Shown here: piece by piece, positions 52,705 through 64,000 of the stretch | Position numbering within the stretch: position 1 is the stretch's first letter | Layout of the letters: every line of letters starts with the position of its first letter | Origin: a virus | Taxonomy: Duplodnaviria > Caudoviricetes | Virus record (IMG/VR): IMGVR_UViG_3300005805_009498 | Location: 1 to 64,000 of that record | DNA: 64,000 nucleotides | Strand: one strand, 5' to 3' | The notes under the pieces: generated by a model | Seen by the model: the letters and a program-made list of their open reading frames with translations, nothing else | What the model was told of the DNA's origin: nothing | Databases searched by the model: none | Made by a program: the position numbers and the translations under genes

Positions 52705-52738
52705 AAAAAATAAAGGGCGCTTTTGCGCCCTTTATTTT
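52705..52738 (-). terminator. Intrinsic (bidirectional-looking) terminator ending the modification operon
   Basis: AAAATAAAGGGCGC-TTTT-GCGCCCTTTATTTT inverted repeat with A/T tracts on both sides. Confidence 0.85.
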
Positions 52739-53091
52739 ATCTTTATCACTTGATCGACGTGTTTGTGTAGCCTCTTCAAAGAATCGTTGTCCAACAAAAA
52801 GGATTTCTTTATCTCTATTTCAAGAGACAACAGCTCCTTTTTTATGTTTTTCACCAGTTCAACCGATATTGAGGGGTTGATATACTGAATGCTACTTTTC
52901 TTTTTCTTTTTGGCAAACTCAAATTCTTCCTTTAATATTAGATTCATAAGGTAAACAGAAGTGTTTTCCATCTGTCCGTCTGAATTCTTTTTCAATCTTA
53001 GAAGTATTTTGTTTACATCTATGACATACGGTTTGGATCCCGTAGCGTACTTCGGTGCGTTGGATTTCTCCTTAGAAAAAATCAGGTTCAT
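52732..53091 (-). CDS. Hypothetical basic protein
   Basis: Overlapping operon member; K-rich. Confidence 0.65.
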   Translation of the reverse strand: MNLIFSKEKSNAPKYATGSKPYVIDVNKILLRLKKNSDGQMENTSVYLMNLILKEEFEFAKKKKKSSIQYINPSISVELVKNIKKELLSLEIEIKKSFLLDNDSLKRLHKHVDQVIKIK

Positions 53092-53525
53092 TTACTTAAT
53101 TTTTTACTTTCAATCTTTTCTTGAACTTCCATGTTTCTTTCCATTATCTCTGATACCTTTTCCTCAGAATATCCTTTTTCCAAAAGATGCGCAGCGATAG
53201 ATTCGTTTCTTAGATCCATGGATTTTCTAATGTTTTTTATGACTTCCTCGGTGTTTGATGCATGAAGTTGTTTTCCGTTCTGTATGTTATTCTTTATGTT
53301 TTCAAACCAATCCTTATATCCTAATCGATTCTTTAACTTTATGTATCCGCTTTGTTTTAACAAGGATCTTCTAAACTTTCTATTAAACGTCATGTTTGAG
53401 AATAACGAAGTATCAAAATCATCCTGAATAGCTGGATCTGGCTGTTCAACGCTTAGATCGATCTCTTGGACCGGGTTTTCTTGTTCTATGTTGTTTTCTT
53501 CCAAAACCTGTGTTTCCTCGTTCAT
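53088..53525 (-). CDS. Hypothetical protein
   Basis: ATGA overlaps with both neighbours. Confidence 0.7.
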   Translation of the reverse strand: MNEETQVLEENNIEQENPVQEIDLSVEQPDPAIQDDFDTSLFSNMTFNRKFRRSLLKQSGYIKLKNRLGYKDWFENIKNNIQNGKQLHASNTEEVIKNIRKSMDLRNESIAAHLLEKGYSEEKVSEIMERNMEVQEKIESKKLSK

Positions 53526-54094
53526 TTCTTTTCTCCGTAAATTTTTGTTATTGAATTTTTTATGGCGTTATTTATTTCTTCCTTGGATACCGATTCTACT
53601 ATTATATCTATCACCTCATTGACTGTAGACTCATCAAAGGTTTCGTTTATCATCTTAAAAAATGACTTTGTCGGTAAGTTTATTTCCAATTCTATGGGAA
53701 CGATCTCTGTACTTTTTTTGGATCTTAATAGTAGATCGGACGAGAACGTTCCTCTACTCTTTTTGCTCTGCGTTTCCGTTGGTTTTTCTTTGACTCTTTC
53801 CAGGCCTAACATTGCCATGTGTTGGTCAGGAATGGCTGATTCGCTTTTAACCCTTTTTTGTTTTAAAACCTCGGGACTCTCAATTGGGTACATCATGTCC
53901 AAATCTATTCTGCCTAAAGCGTTTTCCTTTGTTGGAATAACGATGAAGTCCTTTCCCAATTTTGACATCGGAATCCTTTGACCGTTGGAAAGAACAGCAA
54001 AATCCTCAAAAGTTTGACTGTCCTGTGTTAGTTCAACCGGTTCAACATTTCCTCTGTTTGATCCTATTATCCATTGTAAGTATTGATTATTCAT
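53522..54094 (-). CDS. Hypothetical protein
   Basis: Overlapping operon member. Confidence 0.7.
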   Translation of the reverse strand: MNNQYLQWIIGSNRGNVEPVELTQDSQTFEDFAVLSNGQRIPMSKLGKDFIVIPTKENALGRIDLDMMYPIESPEVLKQKRVKSESAIPDQHMAMLGLERVKEKPTETQSKKSRGTFSSDLLLRSKKSTEIVPIELEINLPTKSFFKMINETFDESTVNEVIDIIVESVSKEEINNAIKNSITKIYGEKK

Positions 54095-54398
54095 CGAAGA
54101 GCGTTATTATATTTTCTTGATAAAACTTTTTTCTATCTTCCTGCATTGTATCTATGGTGTTGGTTATCATTTCCTTAAGAAATTCTAGATTTTCTTTAAA
54201 GAATATGTTTACCCCTCTTTTAGAGACATCGTCGGAATTTGATGTGAAGTTTTTTGGAATCTCGTTTATTCTCCAAAACAATAGTGGACGACAATCCACA
54301 AATTTTATGTTTACCTCTTTCCATCCGTTTGGCTTTACGGTTATCGTTTCACAAAGATCCCATTCTATGTCGTTTTCAATCTTGTAGTCTATCTTCAT
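54087..54398 (-). CDS. Hypothetical protein
   Basis: Overlapping operon member. Confidence 0.65.
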   Translation of the reverse strand: MKIDYKIENDIEWDLCETITVKPNGWKEVNIKFVDCRPLLFWRINEIPKNFTSNSDDVSKRGVNIFFKENLEFLKEMITNTIDTMQEDRKKFYQENIITLFDE

Positions 54399-55093
54399 GC
54401 GTTAATTCCCCCTATTACCCTTGGCCAATAAACATCTGGGGATATTCCCATCAACTGTATCACCAATTCCAATTCCTTATCGGCGTTAAGACCATTAGGA
54501 AGATTCCAATGATGGCTTTCTACCGGTTTCACGTGAGAGGCTTTAACATCGTCTATTATAGCAAGTCTTTCGTAATTAAGTTCCCTTGCCCATAGATAAT
54601 CTTGCGCCCACCCTGAATATGTTATGGTGAATGTTCCAAGAACACGTCTTAGCGCCGATGTCTTAAACAACGGACACATTATCTCAACATAGTTTGTGTA
54701 TCTAATGAACTTGGTTTGATCGTTCAATACTAATGGAAAACTATAGTAACTGTCATGGGTTAACGATGGCTGACATATATTTAGATTATAATCCTGCGCA
54801 ATCGTAAACAATCTAGCTATCTCGGTTGGATCAAGATGAACATCGTAATCAGGCATCCATATCCAATCATACTGATCGAGTATGTCGTACTTTTCGATGA
54901 ACCTCTTGTATATGTGATGTTTGTACCCTTTGTCTTTCACATAATACTTTGCTGTTCCATACACCTGAGGATCGTCGTTCCATTCGTCAGGGTTGAAATT
55001 TATAAGAGCAAGATCAAATCCGCATAGTTTAAAGTCTTTGTCGTTATAAAATCCCCCCTCGGCGCTTGTAGCTATGACGAGGTTTCTTTTCAT
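54395..55093 (-). CDS. DUF707-family GT-A glycosyltransferase-like protein
   Basis: YDWIWMPDYDV, NICQPSLT, YTNYVEIMCPLF, SGWAQDYLW. Confidence 0.8.
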   Translation of the reverse strand: MKRNLVIATSAEGGFYNDKDFKLCGFDLALINFNPDEWNDDPQVYGTAKYYVKDKGYKHHIYKRFIEKYDILDQYDWIWMPDYDVHLDPTEIARLFTIAQDYNLNICQPSLTHDSYYSFPLVLNDQTKFIRYTNYVEIMCPLFKTSALRRVLGTFTITYSGWAQDYLWARELNYERLAIIDDVKASHVKPVESHHWNLPNGLNADKELELVIQLMGISPDVYWPRVIGGINA

Positions 55094-55329
55094 TGCTGTG
55101 TTTGTTCTTCTTGCTGCTGTGTAGCGTTTACCGATTCTACAGAGCGATCAGGTCTAAAAAACACTATTGCATCATAAATGATCTTGGCTTCTTGAATTGA
55201 ATATGCGCCAAGTCTTGTTGCGTGTTCTGCCGCGTTTACGAGAACGTTTATCGCCTTAGCTGGATCGTCTATCACATACGCAGGTGTTTGTGGACGTTCT
55301 GGTTGCGGTGTTTGTTCGGTTGTTTCCAT
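55090..55329 (-). CDS. Small hypothetical protein
   Basis: GAGG SD; overlaps the gp42 stop and the DUF707 start. Confidence 0.7.
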   Translation of the reverse strand: METTEQTPQPERPQTPAYVIDDPAKAINVLVNAAEHATRLGAYSIQEAKIIYDAIVFFRPDRSVESVNATQQQEEQTQQ

Positions 55330-56177
55330 TATTCCTCTACGAAAAATTTGTTAAATATGTCGATGTAATCTTGTGTTTTAAGAACCGAAAAATCTTCTAT
55401 AGATTCCATGTGTTCGTTAAAACGCTTTGCTTGTATTGATATTCCAGTATTTGGATCAAAGATCGGCTTAGTTATCTTTAGCTCTATATCATTATTTGAA
55501 TTTGGATTTTCCTTTCTCAATTCTTGTACCAGAGAGAAATGTCTCTCGTAATAATGAGTATTATCAGAGCAATGATAGTAGGTTCCAACTTCGAGTTCGT
55601 TGTATTTTTCCTTTAGAAGAAGGTACATCGATTGATAAACAACAGAAAAGAACGGCGCATCGTATTGAAGACCATAGAATATGTCGTTTGATCTCATCTG
55701 TACCTTCATGTTTAGCTTATTATCTCTTATCCAAAAGTTCATATACATTGTACAAACGAAATCCTTAACACCTTGACGTTGATACGCCGGTGTATTAAAA
55801 ACCATTATGGCTTGACGCGTAGATTTGTCGTTAATAAGGGCATCATAGGCCCACTTGAACTGGCTTTTGTTTTGTCTTGAATTTATGATGTATCCGTAAT
55901 TGGAATTAACACGGTTAAACTCATCTACCAGACTTTTCCAAAAGCTAGAAAATTCGTTGATTCTATTTATGTTTGTATCTTCACACAGATACCACCATAA
56001 TTCTCCTATGAAATACTTCCAATTAAAAGCCTTGCTATCGAAGTTCATGAGAGGGTATAACGGATCGAACTCAAGGGTGGTAAGATACTCTTCTACGACC
56101 TTTAATCCTCTTGGTGAATCTTCGGTTTCCATCCTTGAAAGGAGAGACAGAACTTCGCTGTTTAGGGTTTTTTTCAT
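55329..56177 (-). CDS. gp42: dCMP hydroxymethylase-type thymidylate-synthase-family enzyme (T4 gp42-like)
   Basis: GELWWY, VNSNYG, KDFVCT, IRDNK, MRSNDIFYGLQYD (Asp at the dUMP/dCMP specificity site), HYYERHFSLV. Confidence 0.85.
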   Translation of the reverse strand: MKKTLNSEVLSLLSRMETEDSPRGLKVVEEYLTTLEFDPLYPLMNFDSKAFNWKYFIGELWWYLCEDTNINRINEFSSFWKSLVDEFNRVNSNYGYIINSRQNKSQFKWAYDALINDKSTRQAIMVFNTPAYQRQGVKDFVCTMYMNFWIRDNKLNMKVQMRSNDIFYGLQYDAPFFSVVYQSMYLLLKEKYNELEVGTYYHCSDNTHYYERHFSLVQELRKENPNSNNDIELKITKPIFDPNTGISIQAKRFNEHMESIEDFSVLKTQDYIDIFNKFFVEE

Positions 56178-56215: not shown

Positions 56216-57268
56216 CTAAAATAAAGCGATGATTTTTGTTTTTCTCGTTGGTTTTCCTGTTTCAAAATCATACATGTATGAGTGTCTGGATAGATGTACG
56301 GATCCAGGTTTTTCCATACACTGTTCCGCGTATTTTTCAGGGTCCATCACATACCATTCATCTGGCCACCTAATGACCATATAATCATGGTCGTAAGAGA
56401 AATCGCTAATAAGTCTATTGAATTCCTTTACCGCATCTGATCTTTGTTGTCTTGTTCCGAAAAAAGGAGATCCTTTATACCATCCGGTTTTTGGGATCTT
56501 CCTTTCTTCGTGTTCTATGGGAAGAAGAGAAACCAACCAGACATTTTCTATTCCTCTATTGTCTTTAAGATCCTTTGCAAACTCTGCATATCTTTTAGCA
56601 AGATCAAGCAACGACGCCATTGGATCTTCCTGTCTAAAAATATGATGCCTAACGTCTATGTTACCCATGTAAAGGATCACGTTTTTGGTTCCTTCAGGGA
56701 AATTAAATTGATCCTTTTTGTTTAAAAACCCGTGTAAAGTTTGGCCATCGTTCCTGCTAATGTTTGCCCCTGGTTCATAGATAGAGACAGCATGACTGTC
56801 CCCATAGATGAAGGTTTTACTGTTAAGAACAACATCAATTCGAGGAATGGACTCTGATATGGACTTATATCGTGAGGCGTCAAGTTCAACCCACTCTTCG
56901 CATGCGCCCTTTGCTCTTGAATTTATGAATTCACCGATATCAGGCATATCGTGATTCAATATGAATATTTTTCCTTTAAATGATTCTAGCCTTTTTACCC
57001 TGTCTGCTACTTCCTTTGTTGCTCCTCCAAATAAGTTGAAAGTTCCTTGAAACTCCATAGGAAGAAGTATCAACCAAACATCGTAATTATGAATGTTATC
57101 GTCCTTAGTAAGGACATCGCATTCTATTTCAAGGCTGTTTAATTGACAGCGTATTAGATATGGCCAGGAGGATTTGTGGGATTCTTTTTTTCTGCTATAT
57201 GACGTAACAACGTCGTCTATGGCAATCCTTTTTCCCCTTAGATCATCAAGAGCATCATATATGTTCAT
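56216..57268 (-). CDS. Hybrid protein: T4 beta-glucosyltransferase-like N-terminal domain + SGNH hydrolase/acyltransferase domain
   Basis: N-term KRIAI...NYDVWLIL...FNLFGG...FKGKIFILNHD; C-term FIYGDSH, DGQT, YMGNID, GSVHLS. Confidence 0.65.
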   Translation of the reverse strand: MNIYDALDDLRGKRIAIDDVVTSYSRKKESHKSSWPYLIRCQLNSLEIECDVLTKDDNIHNYDVWLILLPMEFQGTFNLFGGATKEVADRVKRLESFKGKIFILNHDMPDIGEFINSRAKGACEEWVELDASRYKSISESIPRIDVVLNSKTFIYGDSHAVSIYEPGANISRNDGQTLHGFLNKKDQFNFPEGTKNVILYMGNIDVRHHIFRQEDPMASLLDLAKRYAEFAKDLKDNRGIENVWLVSLLPIEHEERKIPKTGWYKGSPFFGTRQQRSDAVKEFNRLISDFSYDHDYMVIRWPDEWYVMDPEKYAEQCMEKPGSVHLSRHSYMYDFETGKPTRKTKIIALF

Positions 57269-57270
57269 CT

Positions 57271-57537
57271 TTATTTCTTCTCGTTATGATAGTTCTCTAA
57301 ACCTTGGATGTATGCGACAGCATCTAAAAGATTATCCCTCTTATGCTGATAGCTCTCTCTGGAAAATTTAAGGGCTATGAGGGCCTTAAACATGTGATCC
57401 GCGCTAAGGTTCATCCCTGTCATACCGTTAAATATCATTGCGGCCCTTTCCATACCTTCGCTAAATGGGCCATATTGACGATCGGCTTCTTCCGATCGAT
57501 TGTTAACTATTTCTTCTGCTTGTGTTAATATGCTCAT
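57271..57537 (-). CDS. DUF6378-like all-alpha protein (possible nucleotide pyrophosphohydrolase); start revised to 57537
   Basis: ILTQAEEIVN..R...YGPF...AAMIF...LIALKFSRE...KRDNLLDAVAY. Confidence 0.75.
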   Translation of the reverse strand: MSILTQAEEIVNNRSEEADRQYGPFSEGMERAAMIFNGMTGMNLSADHMFKALIALKFSRESYQHKRDNLLDAVAYIQGLENYHNEKK

Positions 57538-57567
57538 AGATTTATTATACATTGTTAGATAGAATTG

Positions 57568-57999
57568 TTATTTATCATAGCCGTTTTCGTTTATCCATCG
57601 CAAATACTTTTTTAGTTCCTTGTCCTCTACCGTTATGGAATATACGCCCTGTTGAAATATCTTCCATGAATCCGAGGCGTACTTTCCCACTCCAGGAAGG
57701 GATTCAACGGAATTTCCATCCCAATTTAACCATTTTTCAGAGAATTTTTTCCACATCTTTGCCCTTCTATTGTAAAATCCTAGAGGCCTTATTATGGATA
57801 TGATTTCCTCATCCGTTGCAGAACAAAGAGATTTTGCATCAGGAAAACGAGAGAAGAACTGGTTTCTTACCTTATCCACTTGTTTGTACCCGGTCTGATT
57901 AAGCATCATACAAACCAGGAGCATCTTCCATGGGTCGTCTTGATAGATTTCTTGACGATATTTAAAGGGACTGGTAGGGGGCTTTGTCGTTTTTTTCAT
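57568..57999 (-). CDS. Stand-alone MBD4-like HhH-GPD DNA glycosylase (143 aa); start revised to 57999
   Basis: QEIYQDDPWKMLLVCMMLNQT, IIRPLGFYNRRAK, HhH LPGVGKYASDSWKIF, VEDKELKKYLRW. Confidence 0.85.
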   Translation of the reverse strand: MKKTTKPPTSPFKYRQEIYQDDPWKMLLVCMMLNQTGYKQVDKVRNQFFSRFPDAKSLCSATDEEIISIIRPLGFYNRRAKMWKKFSEKWLNWDGNSVESLPGVGKYASDSWKIFQQGVYSITVEDKELKKYLRWINENGYDK

Positions 58000-58005
58000 G
58001 ATTCT

Positions 58006-58014
58006 AATATATAG
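58006..58014 (+). promoter_or_regulatory. Candidate late-promoter motif AATATATAG between divergent genes
   Basis: Lies in the 29-bp gap between the divergent starts at 57999 (-) and 58029 (+); TATATA core is self-complementary. Confidence 0.45.
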
Positions 58015-58028
58015 AAAAACTATATCTT

Positions 58029-58346
58029 GTGAAAACTTTTTTACAGATAAAAAGCATAAACGAATCGAAAGAAGGATACCAGGCATTAAAAGATCTAAAT
58101 AGATTACATAAGTTAGAGCTTGAGATACAGGATATCCAAAGAACGGTTGTGGAACTATTGGATAAGGCAAAGAAATATAAGATTGGAAGCAAGGAAAGAG
58201 AAAAGTTGGAAGAAAGAATGTTTAAGTTTATCGAAGAGAAGAAAAGCATTCAGGAAGAGATAGATTACGAAATTAGAATTTTTAAGCGCTCCATTGCTTT
58301 AATTGACACGGATGGACACTTAGACGTAGAAGATTTTTTTAATTAA
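58029..58346 (+). CDS. Small coiled-coil protein, possible internal head protein
   Basis: GTG start; N-terminus MKTFLQIKSINES resembles a capsid-targeting/cleavage sequence. Confidence 0.6.
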   Translation: MKTFLQIKSINESKEGYQALKDLNRLHKLELEIQDIQRTVVELLDKAKKYKIGSKEREKLEERMFKFIEEKKSIQEEIDYEIRIFKRSIALIDTDGHLDVEDFFN

Positions 58347-58973: not shown

Positions 58974-59000
58974 AAAAAGGGAGCATTAGCTCCCTTTTTT
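58974..59000 (+). terminator. Intrinsic terminator (bidirectional-looking) after the plus-strand pair
   Basis: AAAAAGGGAGC-ATTA-GCTCCCTTTTTT. Confidence 0.85.
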
Positions 59001-59025
59001 ATTGTTCGATAGTTGGCCTTGGACA

Positions 59026-59061
59026 AAAATAAAAAACCCTCTTGGTTTCCCAAGAGGGTTT
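59026..59061 (-). terminator. Intrinsic terminator of the major capsid gene
   Basis: 12-bp stem AAACCCTCTTGG-GAAA-CCAAGAGGGTTT followed by a T-tract on the minus strand. Confidence 0.9.
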
Positions 59062-59085: not shown

Positions 59086-60921
59086 TTAGACTATACCTGC
59101 TGCAGGTGTTTCAACCCAGAATGTGTAGTATTGAGCTTCTGGATAGAATCCAGCGTCAACAAGAGCGTAACGGCTCTTAACAGCAATCTTAGGTGACATT
59201 GTTCCTTCAGCGATAGTGCTGATCGACTCCGCCATGAGGTAAGGCATGAACTTGATGCCTGGCTCGATGTCAGCGCCCTTACGACCAACGAGGATACGTG
59301 TATCGTTCCATGTCATGTTAGGATCAACGTAAACTGTCATTCCGAACAGCGTTCCTGCTGGATACAGCTGGCCGCTTGACTGGTTTAGGGTGTTATCGAA
59401 CGGAGCAAGAGAGAATCCCTTAACGATGTTGAGGGCCGAAAGCACCTGAGCATTTGTGACAACGAAGTTCGCTGGGCCACGACGACCACGTGTGTGGATC
59501 AGGTTCGAAGCCGCATGGATCTTGCTGACGATGCGCTGTTGTGCTGTCGAGAGGTTCTCGAAGTTTCCGTAATCTGCGTAAGCTGGGATGTTGTTTGTCC
59601 ATGAAAGCGCAGTGTTTGACTTACCAATGTACGATGACGTTGTTGCTGATACTGTCTGTGTTGGATCAAGCGAAAGGTTAAGTGTGAAACCTTGCGTTTG
59701 CTTAACATCGTAGTTGTTCTGCCATCCGAGTGCGAACGCGCGAGAAAGGATGTGCTTGTTGATCGACTGTGAAACTTCGTTAACAAGTACGCCTTCTGCC
59801 ATAGCGAGGATATCGATACCAAACTGGCGGTTCATGTCCTGGATTTGCTCAGTTGTTACGCTGATCGTTACCTGGAATGTTCCAGCTTGTACGTTCTTTG
59901 TGAACGTTTGGATACCCATTGCACGTGGATATGTTTCTTCTCCAGTTCCACGGCTCATAGGATCGTATGGCTTTGTTCCGTCTGTGAACGGTCCGTTCCA
60001 TGTGTTTGTATCATCTGCACCAGCTCCAGAGAAACCATAGATGTGATTCTCAAGGGCAGAAACATAACCTGGACGGAAAGGAGCGCCTGTTGTTCCATTT
60101 CCTGAAGCGTACGCTGTATCGTTTGGTTGACCCGAAGTTTCACCTACGATAGAAGAATACGTAGTGCCAGAACCAACGCCAAACGCATCAGCGATAGTTA
60201 CTGTGTTTGGATTTGTGCTAGCCTGATAATCAAGCGCAGAATCAAGCACACCAGTTGAAACAACCTTGAAAATTAGATCGCCCGTTACGAACGACTTACC
60301 AACATAAACAAGCTTTGCTGCGTCGCATTCTGCAAGTGTTACCTCATAGTCTGTTGTCTTTGAAGTATCAAGCGATGCCTCAAGAGGAACAGCATAGTAT
60401 GTAGATCCAACAGTTAGCTGTCCAGTATCTCCATCGTATACCTCAGTTGCAGGCATGCTAATCATGAGCGGCTGTGTCTTGTTTGCATCTTGACCTGATG
60501 TTGCGTAATCAAGCTTACCACCTGCATAGATGTAATCTAGATAAGGAAGGATTCCCGTCGGTCCTGGCATAGGTATAACAGAGACGATGTCGAAACCGAC
60601 TGTCTTTGCAGCAACCTGGATTGCCAAAGGAAGAAGCGATGGGAACTTATCACCTGATCCCTGATACGATGTGTTGTAAAAGTTAGCAGGCGTTACCATT
60701 GCTGTACCGAGGTTAACCGGTCCTTGACCAGGAACGTTAACAAGTTGAGCAAGACCAGTTCCCTGGAATGACTCGTTCATTGTGAAGCTTTCGTTCATCT
60801 GGTGGTAGTGGCAATACTTAGAGAGCCAGTTCTTCTTGTAACCTTCCTTGACTCCAACGGACTCAAGCATAGGCGACCACTCGTTGATGATCTGTGCTTC
60901 GTTCAAAAGCTGTAGATTCAT
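59086..60921 (-). CDS. gp23: Major capsid protein (T4 gp23-like)
   Basis: EWSPMLE, LLPLAIQVAAKTVGFDIVSVIPMPGPTG, RGRRGPANFVVT, GIKFMPY, PKIAVKSRYALV. Confidence 0.97.
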   Translation of the reverse strand: MNLQLLNEAQIINEWSPMLESVGVKEGYKKNWLSKYCHYHQMNESFTMNESFQGTGLAQLVNVPGQGPVNLGTAMVTPANFYNTSYQGSGDKFPSLLPLAIQVAAKTVGFDIVSVIPMPGPTGILPYLDYIYAGGKLDYATSGQDANKTQPLMISMPATEVYDGDTGQLTVGSTYYAVPLEASLDTSKTTDYEVTLAECDAAKLVYVGKSFVTGDLIFKVVSTGVLDSALDYQASTNPNTVTIADAFGVGSGTTYSSIVGETSGQPNDTAYASGNGTTGAPFRPGYVSALENHIYGFSGAGADDTNTWNGPFTDGTKPYDPMSRGTGEETYPRAMGIQTFTKNVQAGTFQVTISVTTEQIQDMNRQFGIDILAMAEGVLVNEVSQSINKHILSRAFALGWQNNYDVKQTQGFTLNLSLDPTQTVSATTSSYIGKSNTALSWTNNIPAYADYGNFENLSTAQQRIVSKIHAASNLIHTRGRRGPANFVVTNAQVLSALNIVKGFSLAPFDNTLNQSSGQLYPAGTLFGMTVYVDPNMTWNDTRILVGRKGADIEPGIKFMPYLMAESISTIAEGTMSPKIAVKSRYALVDAGFYPEAQYYTFWVETPAAGIV

Positions 60922-60941
60922 TTTTTCTTTATTTTTTAAAA

Positions 60942-62813
60942 TTATAATTTACCAATTAGACTCTTCTTAACCTGTTCGATATAAGAAGAATTGTTACCCT
61001 TCACGGACTCAATTGTGCTGTAAGGATTTACAGATTCGTTGAGGGTTTCCGTGACGTTTCCATTGAAGTTGACAACGTCAGGCCTTGTGGCCCAGAAGTT
61101 CCTTATCTGATAAGGCGTATCAAGCTTTATGTATTGAGCCTGGGACGCGATACGACGACGGCTTTCCTCTGAGAGGGATTCCCAAATAGGAGCGTACTCC
61201 GTTGGCATTTCCTTTATCCACTTTGGAAGACTTGCCTTCTTCCTCGATGCAGAAAGCGAAGATTCCCAAATGTTCACAACGTCCTTCTCCGTAAAGAATA
61301 TCGAGTTACTCATTGCCTCATTGACTATCTCTTTTTCAGTCAGCGGCAAGTCTATGAACTTCTTCCTTCTTTCTGGTGAAAGCAGTCTTAAGAACGGGAA
61401 CTTTGCTGATTCATTCAACGTCTGAACCTTCTCTTTTTTGGCTTCAGCTATCAAATGATTTACCTTTTCGGAAAGATTATCACCGGCCAACATTGATGCC
61501 TGTTTTTCTTTCCTCTTCTTAACCATTTTCTTTTCTTTTTCATTTATAGATTCAACAACGTAATCCGAATATTGTATGGCCTTGTCTGTCTGTTCAGCAA
61601 CATATTCGGTGTATCCTATAGAATGGTTTACCGCTTCTGCAAGATAATCGTTGTGCTTGATAGAAAGATCCAGATTTTCTCCTAGGTATTCGGAATAACC
61701 TATAGAATCGTTTAGATTCTCTGCCAGATAGTTTCCGTATTCTATTGAATCTTCGACCTTTTCTGCCAGATAATTACTGTAATTTATGTTTTGGTTTACC
61801 TTCTCTGAAATGTAGTTAGAATAAGAGATGTTCTTATCTAGATTTTCAGCGAGATAGTTTTGATAGCTGTCAGAAAGATTCAATCTCTCGGCTATGTAGT
61901 TTGAATAATCTATTGTGTCCGTCACCTTTCTCTTGAGCTTATTGACAGAGCTAATATTCGTGTCAACATTCTCTGAAAGATAGTTACAATAGTTTATTGT
62001 TCCATTGAGCTTCTCCGCAAGATAGTTTGTGTACTCTATCAACTTCGCCATGTTGTCGTCGTTAGAAGAAGCTCTGTTAACTCTCTTTATAAGACCCGAG
62101 AGTTTCTTCTCGAGTAATTCGATCTCTCTCTTAACAAGCTTTGAATACTCGTTGAGCTCAGAGACCTTTACCGTATCATCCTTTGGATTTGAGCCCATAA
62201 CTTTGTTATTTTTTTGTTGTTTTGTTTTTTCAATATCGCTAAATAATGAGCCCGGATCATACATCTCCGAAACATCATATATGTGTATGTTTGATTTTGC
62301 AGAAAAACCTAGAGATTCGTTCACCAGTGAAAGCTGAGCGTTTTCAAATCCTGGGTCTGCGACTAGATCGTAAGTAAATATTTTCTTAAGTTTGACCTTT
62401 TTATCTGAGCCAACCGTTCCTGCCGCCCTTGATGAAATCGAAAGAGGAACTCCCGCTTCAACCAATCGTTTTGCGGTGATTCCTGCATCTGTGTTTAAGA
62501 GTCTTACCTTGCCCTTAAGACACCTTGTTGACTTATCGTATTCAAGATTTTCTATTATGTGAGATACCTTTTGCAGAGAAACATCAAACTTCTCTGGATG
62601 GTCCAATTCTCCCATAAGTCTCTTTGACTTTATCTTATCGCGAAGATAATCGAGGTGTGGAAGGTATTCGTTTTCCTCGTATATCCTATCGTTGTTATTT
62701 ACAACTCCAAACTGGGCAAATATTCCCTCTAGAACTATATCTCCGTTGCCTTCGTTCTTGGATTCGAGGATTGAACTGGAATTTTCCAGTATTAAAAGAA
62801 CCTTTTGATCCAT
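60942..62813 (-). CDS. gp21: Prohead protease (gp21-like) fused to a 14-aa-repeat scaffold domain
   Basis: VLEGIF...NNNDRIY, LMGELDHP, GVPLSISSRAAG, TYDLVADPGF; then about ten Y-x-x-YLAE-x-L repeats. Confidence 0.92.
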   Translation of the reverse strand: MDQKVLLILENSSSILESKNEGNGDIVLEGIFAQFGVVNNNDRIYEENEYLPHLDYLRDKIKSKRLMGELDHPEKFDVSLQKVSHIIENLEYDKSTRCLKGKVRLLNTDAGITAKRLVEAGVPLSISSRAAGTVGSDKKVKLKKIFTYDLVADPGFENAQLSLVNESLGFSAKSNIHIYDVSEMYDPGSLFSDIEKTKQQKNNKVMGSNPKDDTVKVSELNEYSKLVKREIELLEKKLSGLIKRVNRASSNDDNMAKLIEYTNYLAEKLNGTINYCNYLSENVDTNISSVNKLKRKVTDTIDYSNYIAERLNLSDSYQNYLAENLDKNISYSNYISEKVNQNINYSNYLAEKVEDSIEYGNYLAENLNDSIGYSEYLGENLDLSIKHNDYLAEAVNHSIGYTEYVAEQTDKAIQYSDYVVESINEKEKKMVKKRKEKQASMLAGDNLSEKVNHLIAEAKKEKVQTLNESAKFPFLRLLSPERRKKFIDLPLTEKEIVNEAMSNSIFFTEKDVVNIWESSLSASRKKASLPKWIKEMPTEYAPIWESLSEESRRRIASQAQYIKLDTPYQIRNFWATRPDVVNFNGNVTETLNESVNPYSTIESVKGNNSSYIEQVKKSLIGKL

Positions 62814-63745: not shown

Positions 63746-64000
63746 TTATATGTGAACTGCTAAAAGTTCAGGAACTTCAATCCATTCGAACATTTTTCCA
63801 AGCCTATCGTAGGTGTAACCGTCATTATAATAACCTTGTTCTCCCGAGAATGTGTCCCAACCGCATGCGATCATAGCTTCCCTTCTAACAACCACCTGTT
63901 GCGTATCGATGTTTTGAAACACCGGTGGTATACCATTTATGACCTGTGGAGCAGAACCTAAGTGCTGAGGAAGGGGCCCTAGATGTAGAATCTTACATAT
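63746..64000 (-). CDS. C-terminal fragment of a probable GT2 glycosyltransferase (runs off the window)
   Basis: Manual translation: ...PPVFQNIDTQQVVVRREAMIACGWDTF...YYNDGYTYDRLGKMFEWIEVPELLAVHI*; not in the ORF track. Confidence 0.55.
   Translation of the reverse strand: MCKILHLGPLPQHLGSAPQVINGIPPVFQNIDTQQVVVRREAMIACGWDTFSGEQGYYNDGYTYDRLGKMFEWIEVPELLAVHI

What the first reader, a model, noticed from the sequence alone, without database searches (positions are those of the whole stretch)
57568..57999. Stand-alone MBD4-like glycosylase heading the modified-cytosine operon
Seen: motifs track the eukaryotic MBD4 catalytic domain as I recall it (QE..D-PWK-L, LN-T, PLG-Y-RAK, G-GKY-DS-IF, ED-L-KY-W), with no Fe-S cluster and no MBD. 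Known: MBD4 excises T, U and 5hmU mispaired with G. Inference: a phage with hmC DNA would suffer hmC to hmU:G deamination that host Ung cannot repair, and this enzyme would supply matched repair, paralleling eukaryotic methylome maintenance.
Basis: partly seen in the sequence, partly recalled or inferred. Interest (0 to 1): 0.7.

Follow-up and report, generated by a model that had tools for sequence, protein, structure and literature searches.

The report
Phage stand-alone MBD4-type mismatch glycosylase
A large uncultured phage carries a stand-alone copy of the catalytic domain of the eukaryotic repair enzyme MBD4 as the first gene of an operon that very probably replaces cytosine with a 5-substituted cytosine. 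It most likely removes the thymine-like bases left when those modified cytosines deaminate.

Summary
ORF 57568-57999 (-) encodes a 143-aa protein that matches the MBD4 glycosylase domain over its full length (PDB phmmer E 1e-23; AF2 model pLDDT 95; TM 0.89, rmsd 1.4 A). Next best is MutY at 1e-6.

- **Active site:** the catalytic Asp (D126 = mouse D534), Tyr (Y107 = Y514) and Gln (Q16 = Q423) are conserved. There is no MBD, no Fe-S cysteine cluster and no Nth-type lysine.
- **Operon:** it is the first of about ten tightly packed minus-strand genes. These include a thymidylate-synthase homologue closest to T4 dCMP hydroxymethylase, with Asp at the cytosine-specificity position.
- **Distribution:** about 160 viral contigs carry the family, against 2 hits in 185,579 prokaryote genomes (pattern-limited scans).
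- **Linkage:** 13 of 24 viral lineages have a cytosine-modification marker within 10 kb (Asp-type TS, T4 alpha-glucosyltransferase, carbamoyltransferase, or the window's 350-aa family). The same glycosylase / pool enzyme / Asp-type TS order occurs in Xp12, the classic all-5mC phage.

The repair reading (excision of T/5hmU/U opposite G) is well supported by inference but has not been assayed. I found no paper describing this viral family. This scan has noted the same kind of gene before on other DNA (135 notes in at least 92 genomes). It is a new variant of a known kind.

The parts
57568..57999 (-). Stand-alone MBD4-type HhH-GPD DNA glycosylase, 143 aa (P0001). Q16, Y107 and D126 correspond to mouse MBD4 Q423, Y514 and D534.
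58006..58033 (-). Sigma-70-like hexamer pair (TTCACA-16-TATATT) ending 6 nt before the ATG. Weak evidence only: the region holds no more such sites than shuffles do, and there is no Shine-Dalgarno sequence.
57271..57552 (-). DUF6378 protein, 93 aa. It lies immediately downstream of the glycosylase here and in 20 other loci, and is very highly conserved. Function unknown.
56216..57268 (-). 350-aa protein of phrog_13881, with a weak sub-threshold GDSL/SGNH match. The same family lies about 1 kb downstream of the glycosylase in 12 other loci (13 of 86 regions, window included).
55329..56177 (-). Cytosine-type thymidylate-synthase homologue (dCMP hydroxymethylase-like), 282 aa, with catalytic C142 and specificity residue D173.
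55090..55329 (-). 79-aa ORF with no family match, overlapping its neighbours.
54395..55093 (-). DUF707-like protein, 232 aa; a possible glycosyltransferase-type enzyme.
52732..54398 (-). Four further overlapping ORFs (103, 190, 145 and 119 aa) with no family match, which complete the co-directional cluster.
52707..52738 (.). Palindromic 14-bp-stem hairpin with T/A runs on both sides, at the end of the cluster; a terminator candidate.

Best explanation
P0001 is a monofunctional, mismatch-specific pyrimidine DNA glycosylase of the MBD4 type. It flips out a thymine-like base (T, 5-hydroxymethyluracil or a derivative, or U) paired with G and cleaves the glycosidic bond using D126, with Y107 and Q16 reading the O2/N3-H edge. 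The phage makes its DNA with a C5-substituted cytosine via the Asp-type TS homologue two genes downstream, probably hmC that is then further decorated. Every deamination therefore yields a T-like base opposite G that Ung-type enzymes cannot remove. Excision followed by gap filling from a pool of modified dCTP would restore the modified cytosine. Shown: family membership, fold, conserved catalytic residues, operon position and recurrent genomic linkage. Inferred: substrates, the nature of the phage base, and who completes base excision repair.
For: Family and fold are established. The three residues whose mutation abolishes or nearly abolishes MBD4 activity or that read the T/U edge (PMC3458566) are conserved here and in 63-67 of 69 stand-alone homologues. 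Tyr replaces the Nth/OGG1 lysine nucleophile, and there is no Fe-S cluster. The operon holds a gp42-like TS with D173 at the D179 position. Asp-type TS genes occur in the same records in the window group (1.5 kb away), G039 (adjacent), G075 and G080 (4.4 kb), G012 (a complete genome, 66 kb away), Xp12 and Donnerlittchen (one gene between) and S-TIM54 (30 kb away). Xp12 DNA is all 5mC (PMC7653180). Other lineages carry a T4 AGT homologue, a carbamoyltransferase or a dCTPase-like NTP-PPase within 10 kb. In all, 13 of 24 lineage groups have a marker, whereas gp42-like genes occur in only 810 of 50,697 phage records. The only Nth-type hit in the phage collection has no TS gene.
Against: There is no biochemical data for any viral member. 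Hundreds of T-even hmC phages lack the gene (19 of 50,697 records hit), so it is not required for hmC genomes. About 11 of 24 lineages show no marker within 10 kb, and most contigs are 2-35% complete. Some homologues sit in plain repair or metabolic contexts. Three lineages carry an Asn-type (true ThyA) TS. The Arg442 finger is Gln, Lys536 is Glu and Gly445 is Tyr in P0001, so specificity may differ from mammalian MBD4. No AP endonuclease, Nei, dCTPase or dCMP deaminase was found in the 72 kb held, which is 24% of the genome.
Confidence: 0.7

Rival explanations
1. The biochemical activity is the same, but the lesions come from a different source. The enzyme would correct T or hmU misincorporated opposite G during replication with an altered dNTP pool, rather than spontaneous deamination in the virion or cell.
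For: The gene lies among nucleotide-pool and replication genes (TS, NTP-PPase, PolB, RNR, dNMP-kinase-like) in several lineages.
Against: A T-removing enzyme would fix only half of G:T replication errors and would make the other half permanent. The linkage is specifically to cytosine-type enzymes, not to polymerases in general.
Confidence: 0.12
2. It is a general HhH-GPD base-excision enzyme for oxidised or alkylated bases (Nth- or AlkA-like), present simply as one of several phage repair genes.
For: Pfam places it only in the HhH-GPD superfamily. Some homologues lie next to Fpg/Nei or UvdE.
Against: NCBIfam nth scores 39.6 bits against a cut-off of 211.7, and mutY 36.5 against 286.5. There is no lysine nucleophile and no Fe-S cluster. 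The MBD4-specific Q/Y/D triad is conserved. PDB E-values favour MBD4 by 17 orders of magnitude.
Confidence: 0.06
3. It is a counter-defence enzyme that mends U:G or T:G lesions made by host or competitor DNA cytosine deaminases.
For: None directly. The activity would suit this role, and the family is almost confined to viruses.
Against: It does not explain the specific linkage to C5-modification genes. No deaminase or inhibitor context was seen.
Confidence: 0.05
4. It has a non-repair role. It might be a base-flipping partner in the hypermodification pathway, or it might excise a modified or unmodified base from host or rival DNA.
For: It sits first in a modification operon with a very tightly conserved unknown partner, DUF6378. 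The C5-pocket positions differ from MBD4.
Against: The intact catalytic triad and the T/U-type hydrogen-bond reader Gln argue for excision of uracil-type bases. Cytosine-type bases have the opposite N3/N4 pattern (PMC3458566).
Confidence: 0.07

Closest known systems
Glycosylase domain of mammalian MBD4/MED1 (PDB 1NGN, 4EVV, 4EW0, 4E9E-H, 3IHO, 6VJW)
   Same: Same fold (TM 0.89, rmsd 1.4 A, 36-37% identity). It has the same catalytic Asp, the Tyr in place of the lysine nucleophile, the Gln that reads O2/N3-H, Leu440/Asn441, and no Fe-S cluster.
   Different: It has no MBD or linker and is viral and stand-alone at 143 aa. The Arg finger is Gln (Q35), Gly445 is Tyr (Y38), Lys536 is Glu (E128) and the Leu482 wedge is Phe (F75). 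Its genomic partner is a cytosine-replacement pathway rather than a CpG methylome.
Plant MBD4L (MBD4-like without an MBD)
   Same: An MBD-less form of the same catalytic domain. Plant proteins are among the best full-library hits (PMC9266487).
   Different: Plant proteins keep a long N-terminal extension. On the tree, N-extended and stand-alone forms separate (7 label changes against 50 in shuffles; a single split is not rejected, p-AU 0.45).
Xanthomonas phage Xp12 QNN97216 and its homologues in Stenotrophomonas phage AXL1 (gp65, 'ENDO3c') and Janthinobacterium phage Donnerlittchen
   Same: Same viral family (35% identity, E 1e-18). Same gene order: glycosylase, then a pool enzyme, then an Asp-type TS. 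The phage DNA is known to be all 5mC.
   Different: A siphovirus of 64 kb. The partner is a PRA-PH/MazG NTP-PPase plus dCMP deaminase and DHFR, not DUF6378 or the 350-aa protein. The gene is annotated only as hypothetical or endonuclease III.
MIG (M. thermoautotrophicum G:T glycosylase, 1KEA), and Vsr as a functional analogue
   Same: Prokaryotic repair of T:G arising from 5mC deamination. MIG is also an HhH enzyme (E 1.8e-5; TM 0.67).
   Different: MIG carries a [4Fe-4S] cluster and is nearer to MutY/Nth. Vsr is an unrelated endonuclease (own knowledge).

Membership tests
MBD4 glycosylase-domain family | Full-length sequence and fold match to the MBD4 catalytic domain, better than to any other HhH-GPD family | tested here: met
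   phmmer E 1e-23 against 9e-7 for MutY; Foldseek TM 0.89 against 0.67
MBD4 glycosylase-domain family | Catalytic Asp (mouse D534, human D560) | tested here: met
   D126 aligns to D534, the column that is mutated in 4evv. It is Asp in 64 of 69 stand-alone and 82 of 82 N-extended homologues.
MBD4 glycosylase-domain family | Tyr514 in place of the HhH lysine nucleophile, and Gln423 reading thymine O2/N3 | tested here: met
   Y107 and Q16
MBD4 glycosylase-domain family | Arg442 finger, Lys536 stacking residue and Gly445 next to C5 | tested here: not met
   These positions are Q35, E128 and Y38. They also vary among eukaryote-type homologues (K/R/Q; M/K/E; G/A/R), so they are not strictly defining.
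MBD4 glycosylase-domain family | No [4Fe-4S] cluster | tested here: met
   Only two Cys residues and no C-terminal Cys loop
MBD4 glycosylase-domain family | Excision of T, U or 5hmU opposite G | not testable with these tools
   This needs an enzyme assay.
MBD4 protein proper (MBD plus glycosylase) | N-terminal methyl-CpG-binding domain | tested here: not met
   The 143-aa protein is the catalytic domain alone, and its homologues have the same length.
Endonuclease III (Nth) | NCBIfam equivalog score, Lys nucleophile and Fe-S cluster | tested here: not met
   TIGR01083 scores 39.6 bits against a cut-off of 211.7. Tyr occupies the Lys position. There is no Cys cluster.
MutY | NCBIfam equivalog score, Fe-S cluster and NUDIX-like C-terminal domain | tested here: not met
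   TIGR01084 scores 36.5 bits against a cut-off of 286.5. The protein is only 143 aa.
dCMP hydroxymethylase (T4 gp42) type TS homologue (operon partner, 55329-56177) | Catalytic Cys, and Asp in place of TS Asn177 | tested here: met
   C142 and D173 align to gp42 C148 and D179; both columns are invariant among 8 Asp-type sequences.
dCMP hydroxymethylase (T4 gp42) type TS homologue (operon partner, 55329-56177) | The product is 5-hydroxymethyl-dCMP rather than 5-methyl-dCMP | not testable with these tools
   The best PDB relative is gp42, but the Xp12-type methylase also has Asp.

The most novel reading that the evidence does not exclude
Viral MBD4-type glycosylases are a dedicated 'modified-genome maintenance' system that co-evolves with cytosine hypermodification. 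Their C5 pocket (Gly445 replaced by Tyr, His, Arg or Trp; Lys536 by Glu or Val) would be adapted to excise deaminated hypermodified bases such as glycosyl- or carbamoyl-hmU. They may also be the stock from which the eukaryotic MBD4 catalytic domain was acquired.
Probability: 0.2. Interest if true: 0.8.

Novelty: new variant of a known kind. Interest (0 to 1): 0.55.

Why it matters
Phages that replace every cytosine create a chemical liability: each deamination gives a T-like base that ordinary uracil repair cannot see. A phage-encoded MBD4-type enzyme wired to the modification genes would be the viral counterpart of eukaryotic methylome maintenance.

- **An unexplained gene:** it would account for a gene in Xp12-type phages that the AXL1 paper (PMC9206674) could only describe as an ENDO3c-domain protein.
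- **A genomic marker:** it would flag modified-cytosine phages in metagenomes.
- **Enzyme tools:** it would offer small (about 140 aa) natural mismatch glycosylases, possibly tolerant of bulky C5 groups, for sequencing and editing chemistry.
- **Evolution:** it bears on where the eukaryotic MBD4 catalytic domain came from.

Tried and rejected
- **Reverse scan failed:** a scan of viral contigs with an alignment of Asp-type TS proteins had no sufficiently conserved stretch. P(glycosylase | Asp-TS) was therefore only bounded from INPHARED: 810 gp42-like records, and no T-even phage among the 19 glycosylase hits.
- the ENA contigs L114 and L115 are not held, so they could not be searched.
- **DUF6378 is not shown to be a MazG-type dCTPase:** hhalign gave probability 0.1%, the PDB profile search found nothing, and Foldseek found nothing at E <= 0.001.
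- **No link between the downstream families:** the 350-aa protein shows no similarity to the 390-aa or 333-aa downstream families and has no PDB sequence hit.
- **One search was uninformative:** the phrog_173 search matched nothing, not even in the control genomes.
- **One apparent counter-example dismissed:** the Enterococcus 'phage' hit H16 is ordinary endonuclease III in an UNVERIFIED_ORG record.
- **No pocket pattern:** position 38 (the Gly445 equivalent) shows no simple correlation with modification type.
- **Promoter evidence is weak:** the sigma-70 scan is no better than shuffles.
- **Literature:** searches found no paper on phage MBD4-like enzymes. The library does not hold most subscription journals.

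Full report
**Observation**

The minus-strand ORF 57568-57999 starts with ATG and encodes 143 aa. Pfam places it in HhH-GPD (5.8e-11). A phmmer search of all PDB chains returns 15 distinct MBD4 glycosylase-domain sequences first (E 1.1e-23 to 1.3e-21). They align residues 5-139 to mouse residues 412-547 with a single one-residue gap. MutY follows at 9e-7, MIG at 1.8e-5 and Nth at 2.5e-4.

An AlphaFold2 model built on 71 homologues has mean pLDDT 95.1. Foldseek ranks 16 MBD4 structures first (TM 0.87-0.89, rmsd 1.3-1.7 A, 35-37% identity) ahead of MIG 1kea (TM 0.67).

NCBIfam nth and mutY models score far below their cut-offs: 39.6 against 211.7 bits, and 36.5 against 286.5 bits. The protein has two cysteines and no C-terminal extension, so it has no Fe-S loop, and no MBD precedes it. 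A longer TTG-started reading (200 aa) is not supported, because homologues of 143-150 aa start at the same MKKT.

**Active site**

I used the ungapped alignment (query residue n corresponds to mouse n+407 up to residue 107) and the structural description by Hashimoto et al. 2012 (PMC3458566).

| Mouse MBD4 residue | Role | P0001 residue |
|---|---|---|
| Gln423 | hydrogen bonds to thymine O2 and N3-H | Q16 (conserved) |
| Leu440 / Asn441 | base stacking, minor groove | L33 / N34 (conserved) |
| Leu480 | carbonyl to the orphan G | L73 (conserved) |
| Tyr514 | replaces the OGG1/Nth lysine; Y514F is nearly dead | Y107 (conserved) |
| Asp534 | catalytic; D534N is dead | D126 (conserved) |
| Arg442 | finger | Q35 |
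| Gly445 | next to the C5 methyl | Y38 |
| Leu482 | wedge | F75 |
| Lys536 | stacks on the base and touches the 5hmU hydroxyl; K536A is 5-10x slower | E128 |

Across 151 cluster representatives, Q, Y and D are kept in 63-67 of 69 stand-alone proteins and in 59-82 of 82 N-extended (eukaryote-type) proteins. The four differing positions also vary within the eukaryote-type group. They argue for altered fine specificity, not against membership. The uracil-type hydrogen-bond reader argues against cytosine-type substrates.

**Surroundings**

The gene is followed on the same strand by these genes:

- DUF6378, after a 15-nt gap.
- A 350-aa phrog_13881 protein with a weak SGNH match, after 2 nt.
- A 282-aa thymidylate-synthase homologue, after 38 nt.
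- A 79-aa ORF, then a DUF707 protein, then four small ORFs, all overlapping by 1-8 nt.
- A palindromic hairpin at 52707-52738 that ends the cluster.

Upstream lie divergent plus-strand ORFs from 58029. The sigma-70-like site before the ATG is weak evidence, and no Shine-Dalgarno sequence is present.

The TS homologue's best solved relative is T4 dCMP hydroxymethylase (E 2.6e-20). Its D173 aligns with gp42 D179, the residue that is Asn in the D179N mutant entries, and C142 aligns with the catalytic Cys. The enzyme is therefore cytosine-specific. Whether it hydroxymethylates or methylates cannot be read from sequence.

The record is an IMG/VR contig of 72.4 kb, estimated at 24% of a genome. Just beyond the window it also encodes a family-2 glycosyltransferase and a guanylate-kinase-like protein. 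No Nei, ExoIII-type AP endonuclease, PRA-PH or dCMP deaminase is present in the part held.

**Distribution**

- The word-indexed search found 218 near-length homologues. [quoted passage not shown]
- The exhaustive search found 923 cluster representatives at E <= 1e-10. They are a mix of stand-alone proteins of about 140 aa and long proteins with the domain at the C-terminus.
- The long proteins I looked up are plant MBD4-like proteins or eukaryote transcripts.
- Pattern scans confirmed 160 relatives in IMG/VR, but only 2 in one genome for each of 185,579 prokaryote species. Both scans are limited by the peptide patterns used.
- On a tree of 151 domains, architecture is strongly clustered (7 changes against about 50 in shuffles). 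A single split between stand-alone and N-extended forms is not rejected (p-AU 0.45). The tree is unrooted, so direction of transfer is open.

**Association with cytosine modification: cultured phages**

tblastn of 50,697 records hits 19.

- Thirteen are Bradleyvirinae: Xp12, AXL1, Donnerlittchen and relatives.
- One is cyanophage S-TIM54.
- The weak remainder includes an ordinary endonuclease III in an unverified Enterococcus record that has no TS gene.

Xp12 DNA has 5mC in place of C (PMC7653180). In Xp12 and Donnerlittchen the gene order is glycosylase, PRA-PH-type NTP pyrophosphohydrolase, TS homologue, dCMP deaminase, DHFR. Their TS has Asp at the specificity position. S-TIM54 also has an Asp-type TS, 30 kb away.

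The AXL1 paper notes gp65 only as an ENDO3c-domain protein found only in Xp12-like phages (PMC9206674). gp42-like genes occur in 810 of 50,697 records, about 1.6%. Three of three independent complete genomes with the glycosylase (Bradleyvirinae, S-TIM54 and the complete IMG/VR genome G012) carrying an Asp-type TS is unlikely by chance. This is a rough estimate, not corrected for phylogeny.

**Association with cytosine modification: 80 viral loci with up to 10 kb of flank**

I clustered the neighbouring ORFs and searched for markers by tblastn. The counts below come from one search, which searched 86 regions: the 80 viral loci, five ENA/JGI contigs and the window itself.

| Marker | Regions (of 86) |
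|---|---|
| DUF6378, directly downstream | 21 |
| The window's 350-aa family | 13 |
| Asp-type TS | window group, L040 (adjacent), L076 and L081 (4.4 kb) |
| T4 alpha-glucosyltransferase homologue (PF11440) | 9 |
| dCTPase-like NTP-PPase | 15 |
| Carbamoyltransferase with both Carbam_trans domains | 5 |

Carbamoyltransferase is the enzyme class shown to make 5-carbamoyloxymethylcytosine from 5hmC (PMC8670742). It lies in the largest T4-like lineage and one other.

Grouping the loci at 70% glycosylase identity gives 24 lineages, and 13 of them have at least one recognised marker within 10 kb. Three lineages carry an Asn-type ThyA. One of these also has the AGT homologue, as T4 itself has both td and gene 42 (own knowledge).

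Counter-examples exist. Several lineages and long contigs show no marker nearby and sit among repair or metabolic genes, for example Fpg/Nei 1.5 kb upstream of homologue P0108. T-even phages lack the gene altogether.

**Mechanism proposed**

The enzyme is a monofunctional glycosylase. It excises T, 5hmU (or its decorated forms) and U opposite G in phage DNA. An AP endonuclease, polymerase and ligase, from the host or from the unsequenced part of the phage, would complete repair. Where unmodified dCTP is excluded from the pool, the patch is refilled with the modified cytosine. Family membership, conserved catalytic residues and linkage are shown. Substrates, timing and the identity of the modified base are inferred. 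Confidence is 0.7.

**Rivals**

- Correction of G:T replication errors (0.12).
- General Nth-like repair (0.06).
- Counter-defence against DNA deaminases (0.05).
- A non-repair role in modification or in attack on other DNA (0.07).

**Novelty**

The enzyme kind is known. What is new is a large, almost exclusively viral, stand-alone clade tied to cytosine-replacement pathways, with a distinct C5 pocket and an unknown conserved partner (DUF6378). Literature searches found no description, though subscription journals are mostly not covered.

Earlier notes of this scan report the same kind of gene in at least 92 other genomes with the same reading. Those are unchecked AI notes. The Xp12 link, the Asp-type TS link and the Nei neighbour were each re-derived here from tool results.

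Noticed in passing
window 57271-57552 (-); also L002-L010, L018-L026, L040, L076, L081, L115: DUF6378 sits immediately downstream of the glycosylase in 21 of the 86 regions searched. It is much better conserved than the glycosylase (60% mean column identity across lineages whose glycosylases are about 50% identical). It is a five-helix protein with no PDB fold match and is not MazG-like by hhalign. It may be a functional partner.
   Followed up: partly
L118:10779-13512 and L014-L049; L040 whole contig: In the largest T4-like lineage the glycosylase is always followed by two unknown genes (390 aa and 334 aa, no Pfam or PHROG match). A FkbM-methyltransferase/HtrL fusion and a carbamoyltransferase lie 4-9 kb further on. 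The 9-kb contig L040 joins an Asp-type TS, DUF6378, the 350-aa family and both unknown genes in one cluster. This suggests an undescribed hmC hypermodification module.
   Followed up: partly
G000 63746-64908 (L112:47-1209), partly beyond the window end: A family-2 glycosyltransferase (213 aa; its C-terminus is the 5'-open ORF at 63746-64000) and a guanylate-kinase-like protein (174 aa) lie next to the capsid module. They are candidate sugar-transfer and modified-dNMP kinase steps.
   Followed up: no
L113 (OR846587.1 37869-38249): The 'Enterococcus phage Efs 1-1-1' record (UNVERIFIED_ORG) encodes an ordinary endonuclease III (E 1.6e-54 to Bacillus Nth) and has no TS gene. It is not an MBD4-type hit.
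   Followed up: yes
locus of P0108 (ENA contig of 202,787 nt, no DNA held) and G066:34083-34412: An Fpg/Nei-type glycosylase lies 1.5 kb upstream of one MBD4-type homologue and occurs in another carrier record. This agrees with earlier scan notes of an MBD4-Nei pair.
   Followed up: partly
window 57553-57567 and 58000-58040: There is no Shine-Dalgarno sequence before the glycosylase or DUF6378 starts, and only about 29 nt separate the glycosylase ATG from the divergent ORF at 58029. The host may use SD-independent initiation, and the promoter architecture is unclear.
   Followed up: no
window 59086-62813 (-): A 611-aa capsid-like ORF and a 623-aa ORF with a long run of about 14-aa repeats (a protease/scaffold-like fusion) lie upstream, followed by two minus-strand terminator-like hairpins at 58974-59061.
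   Followed up: no
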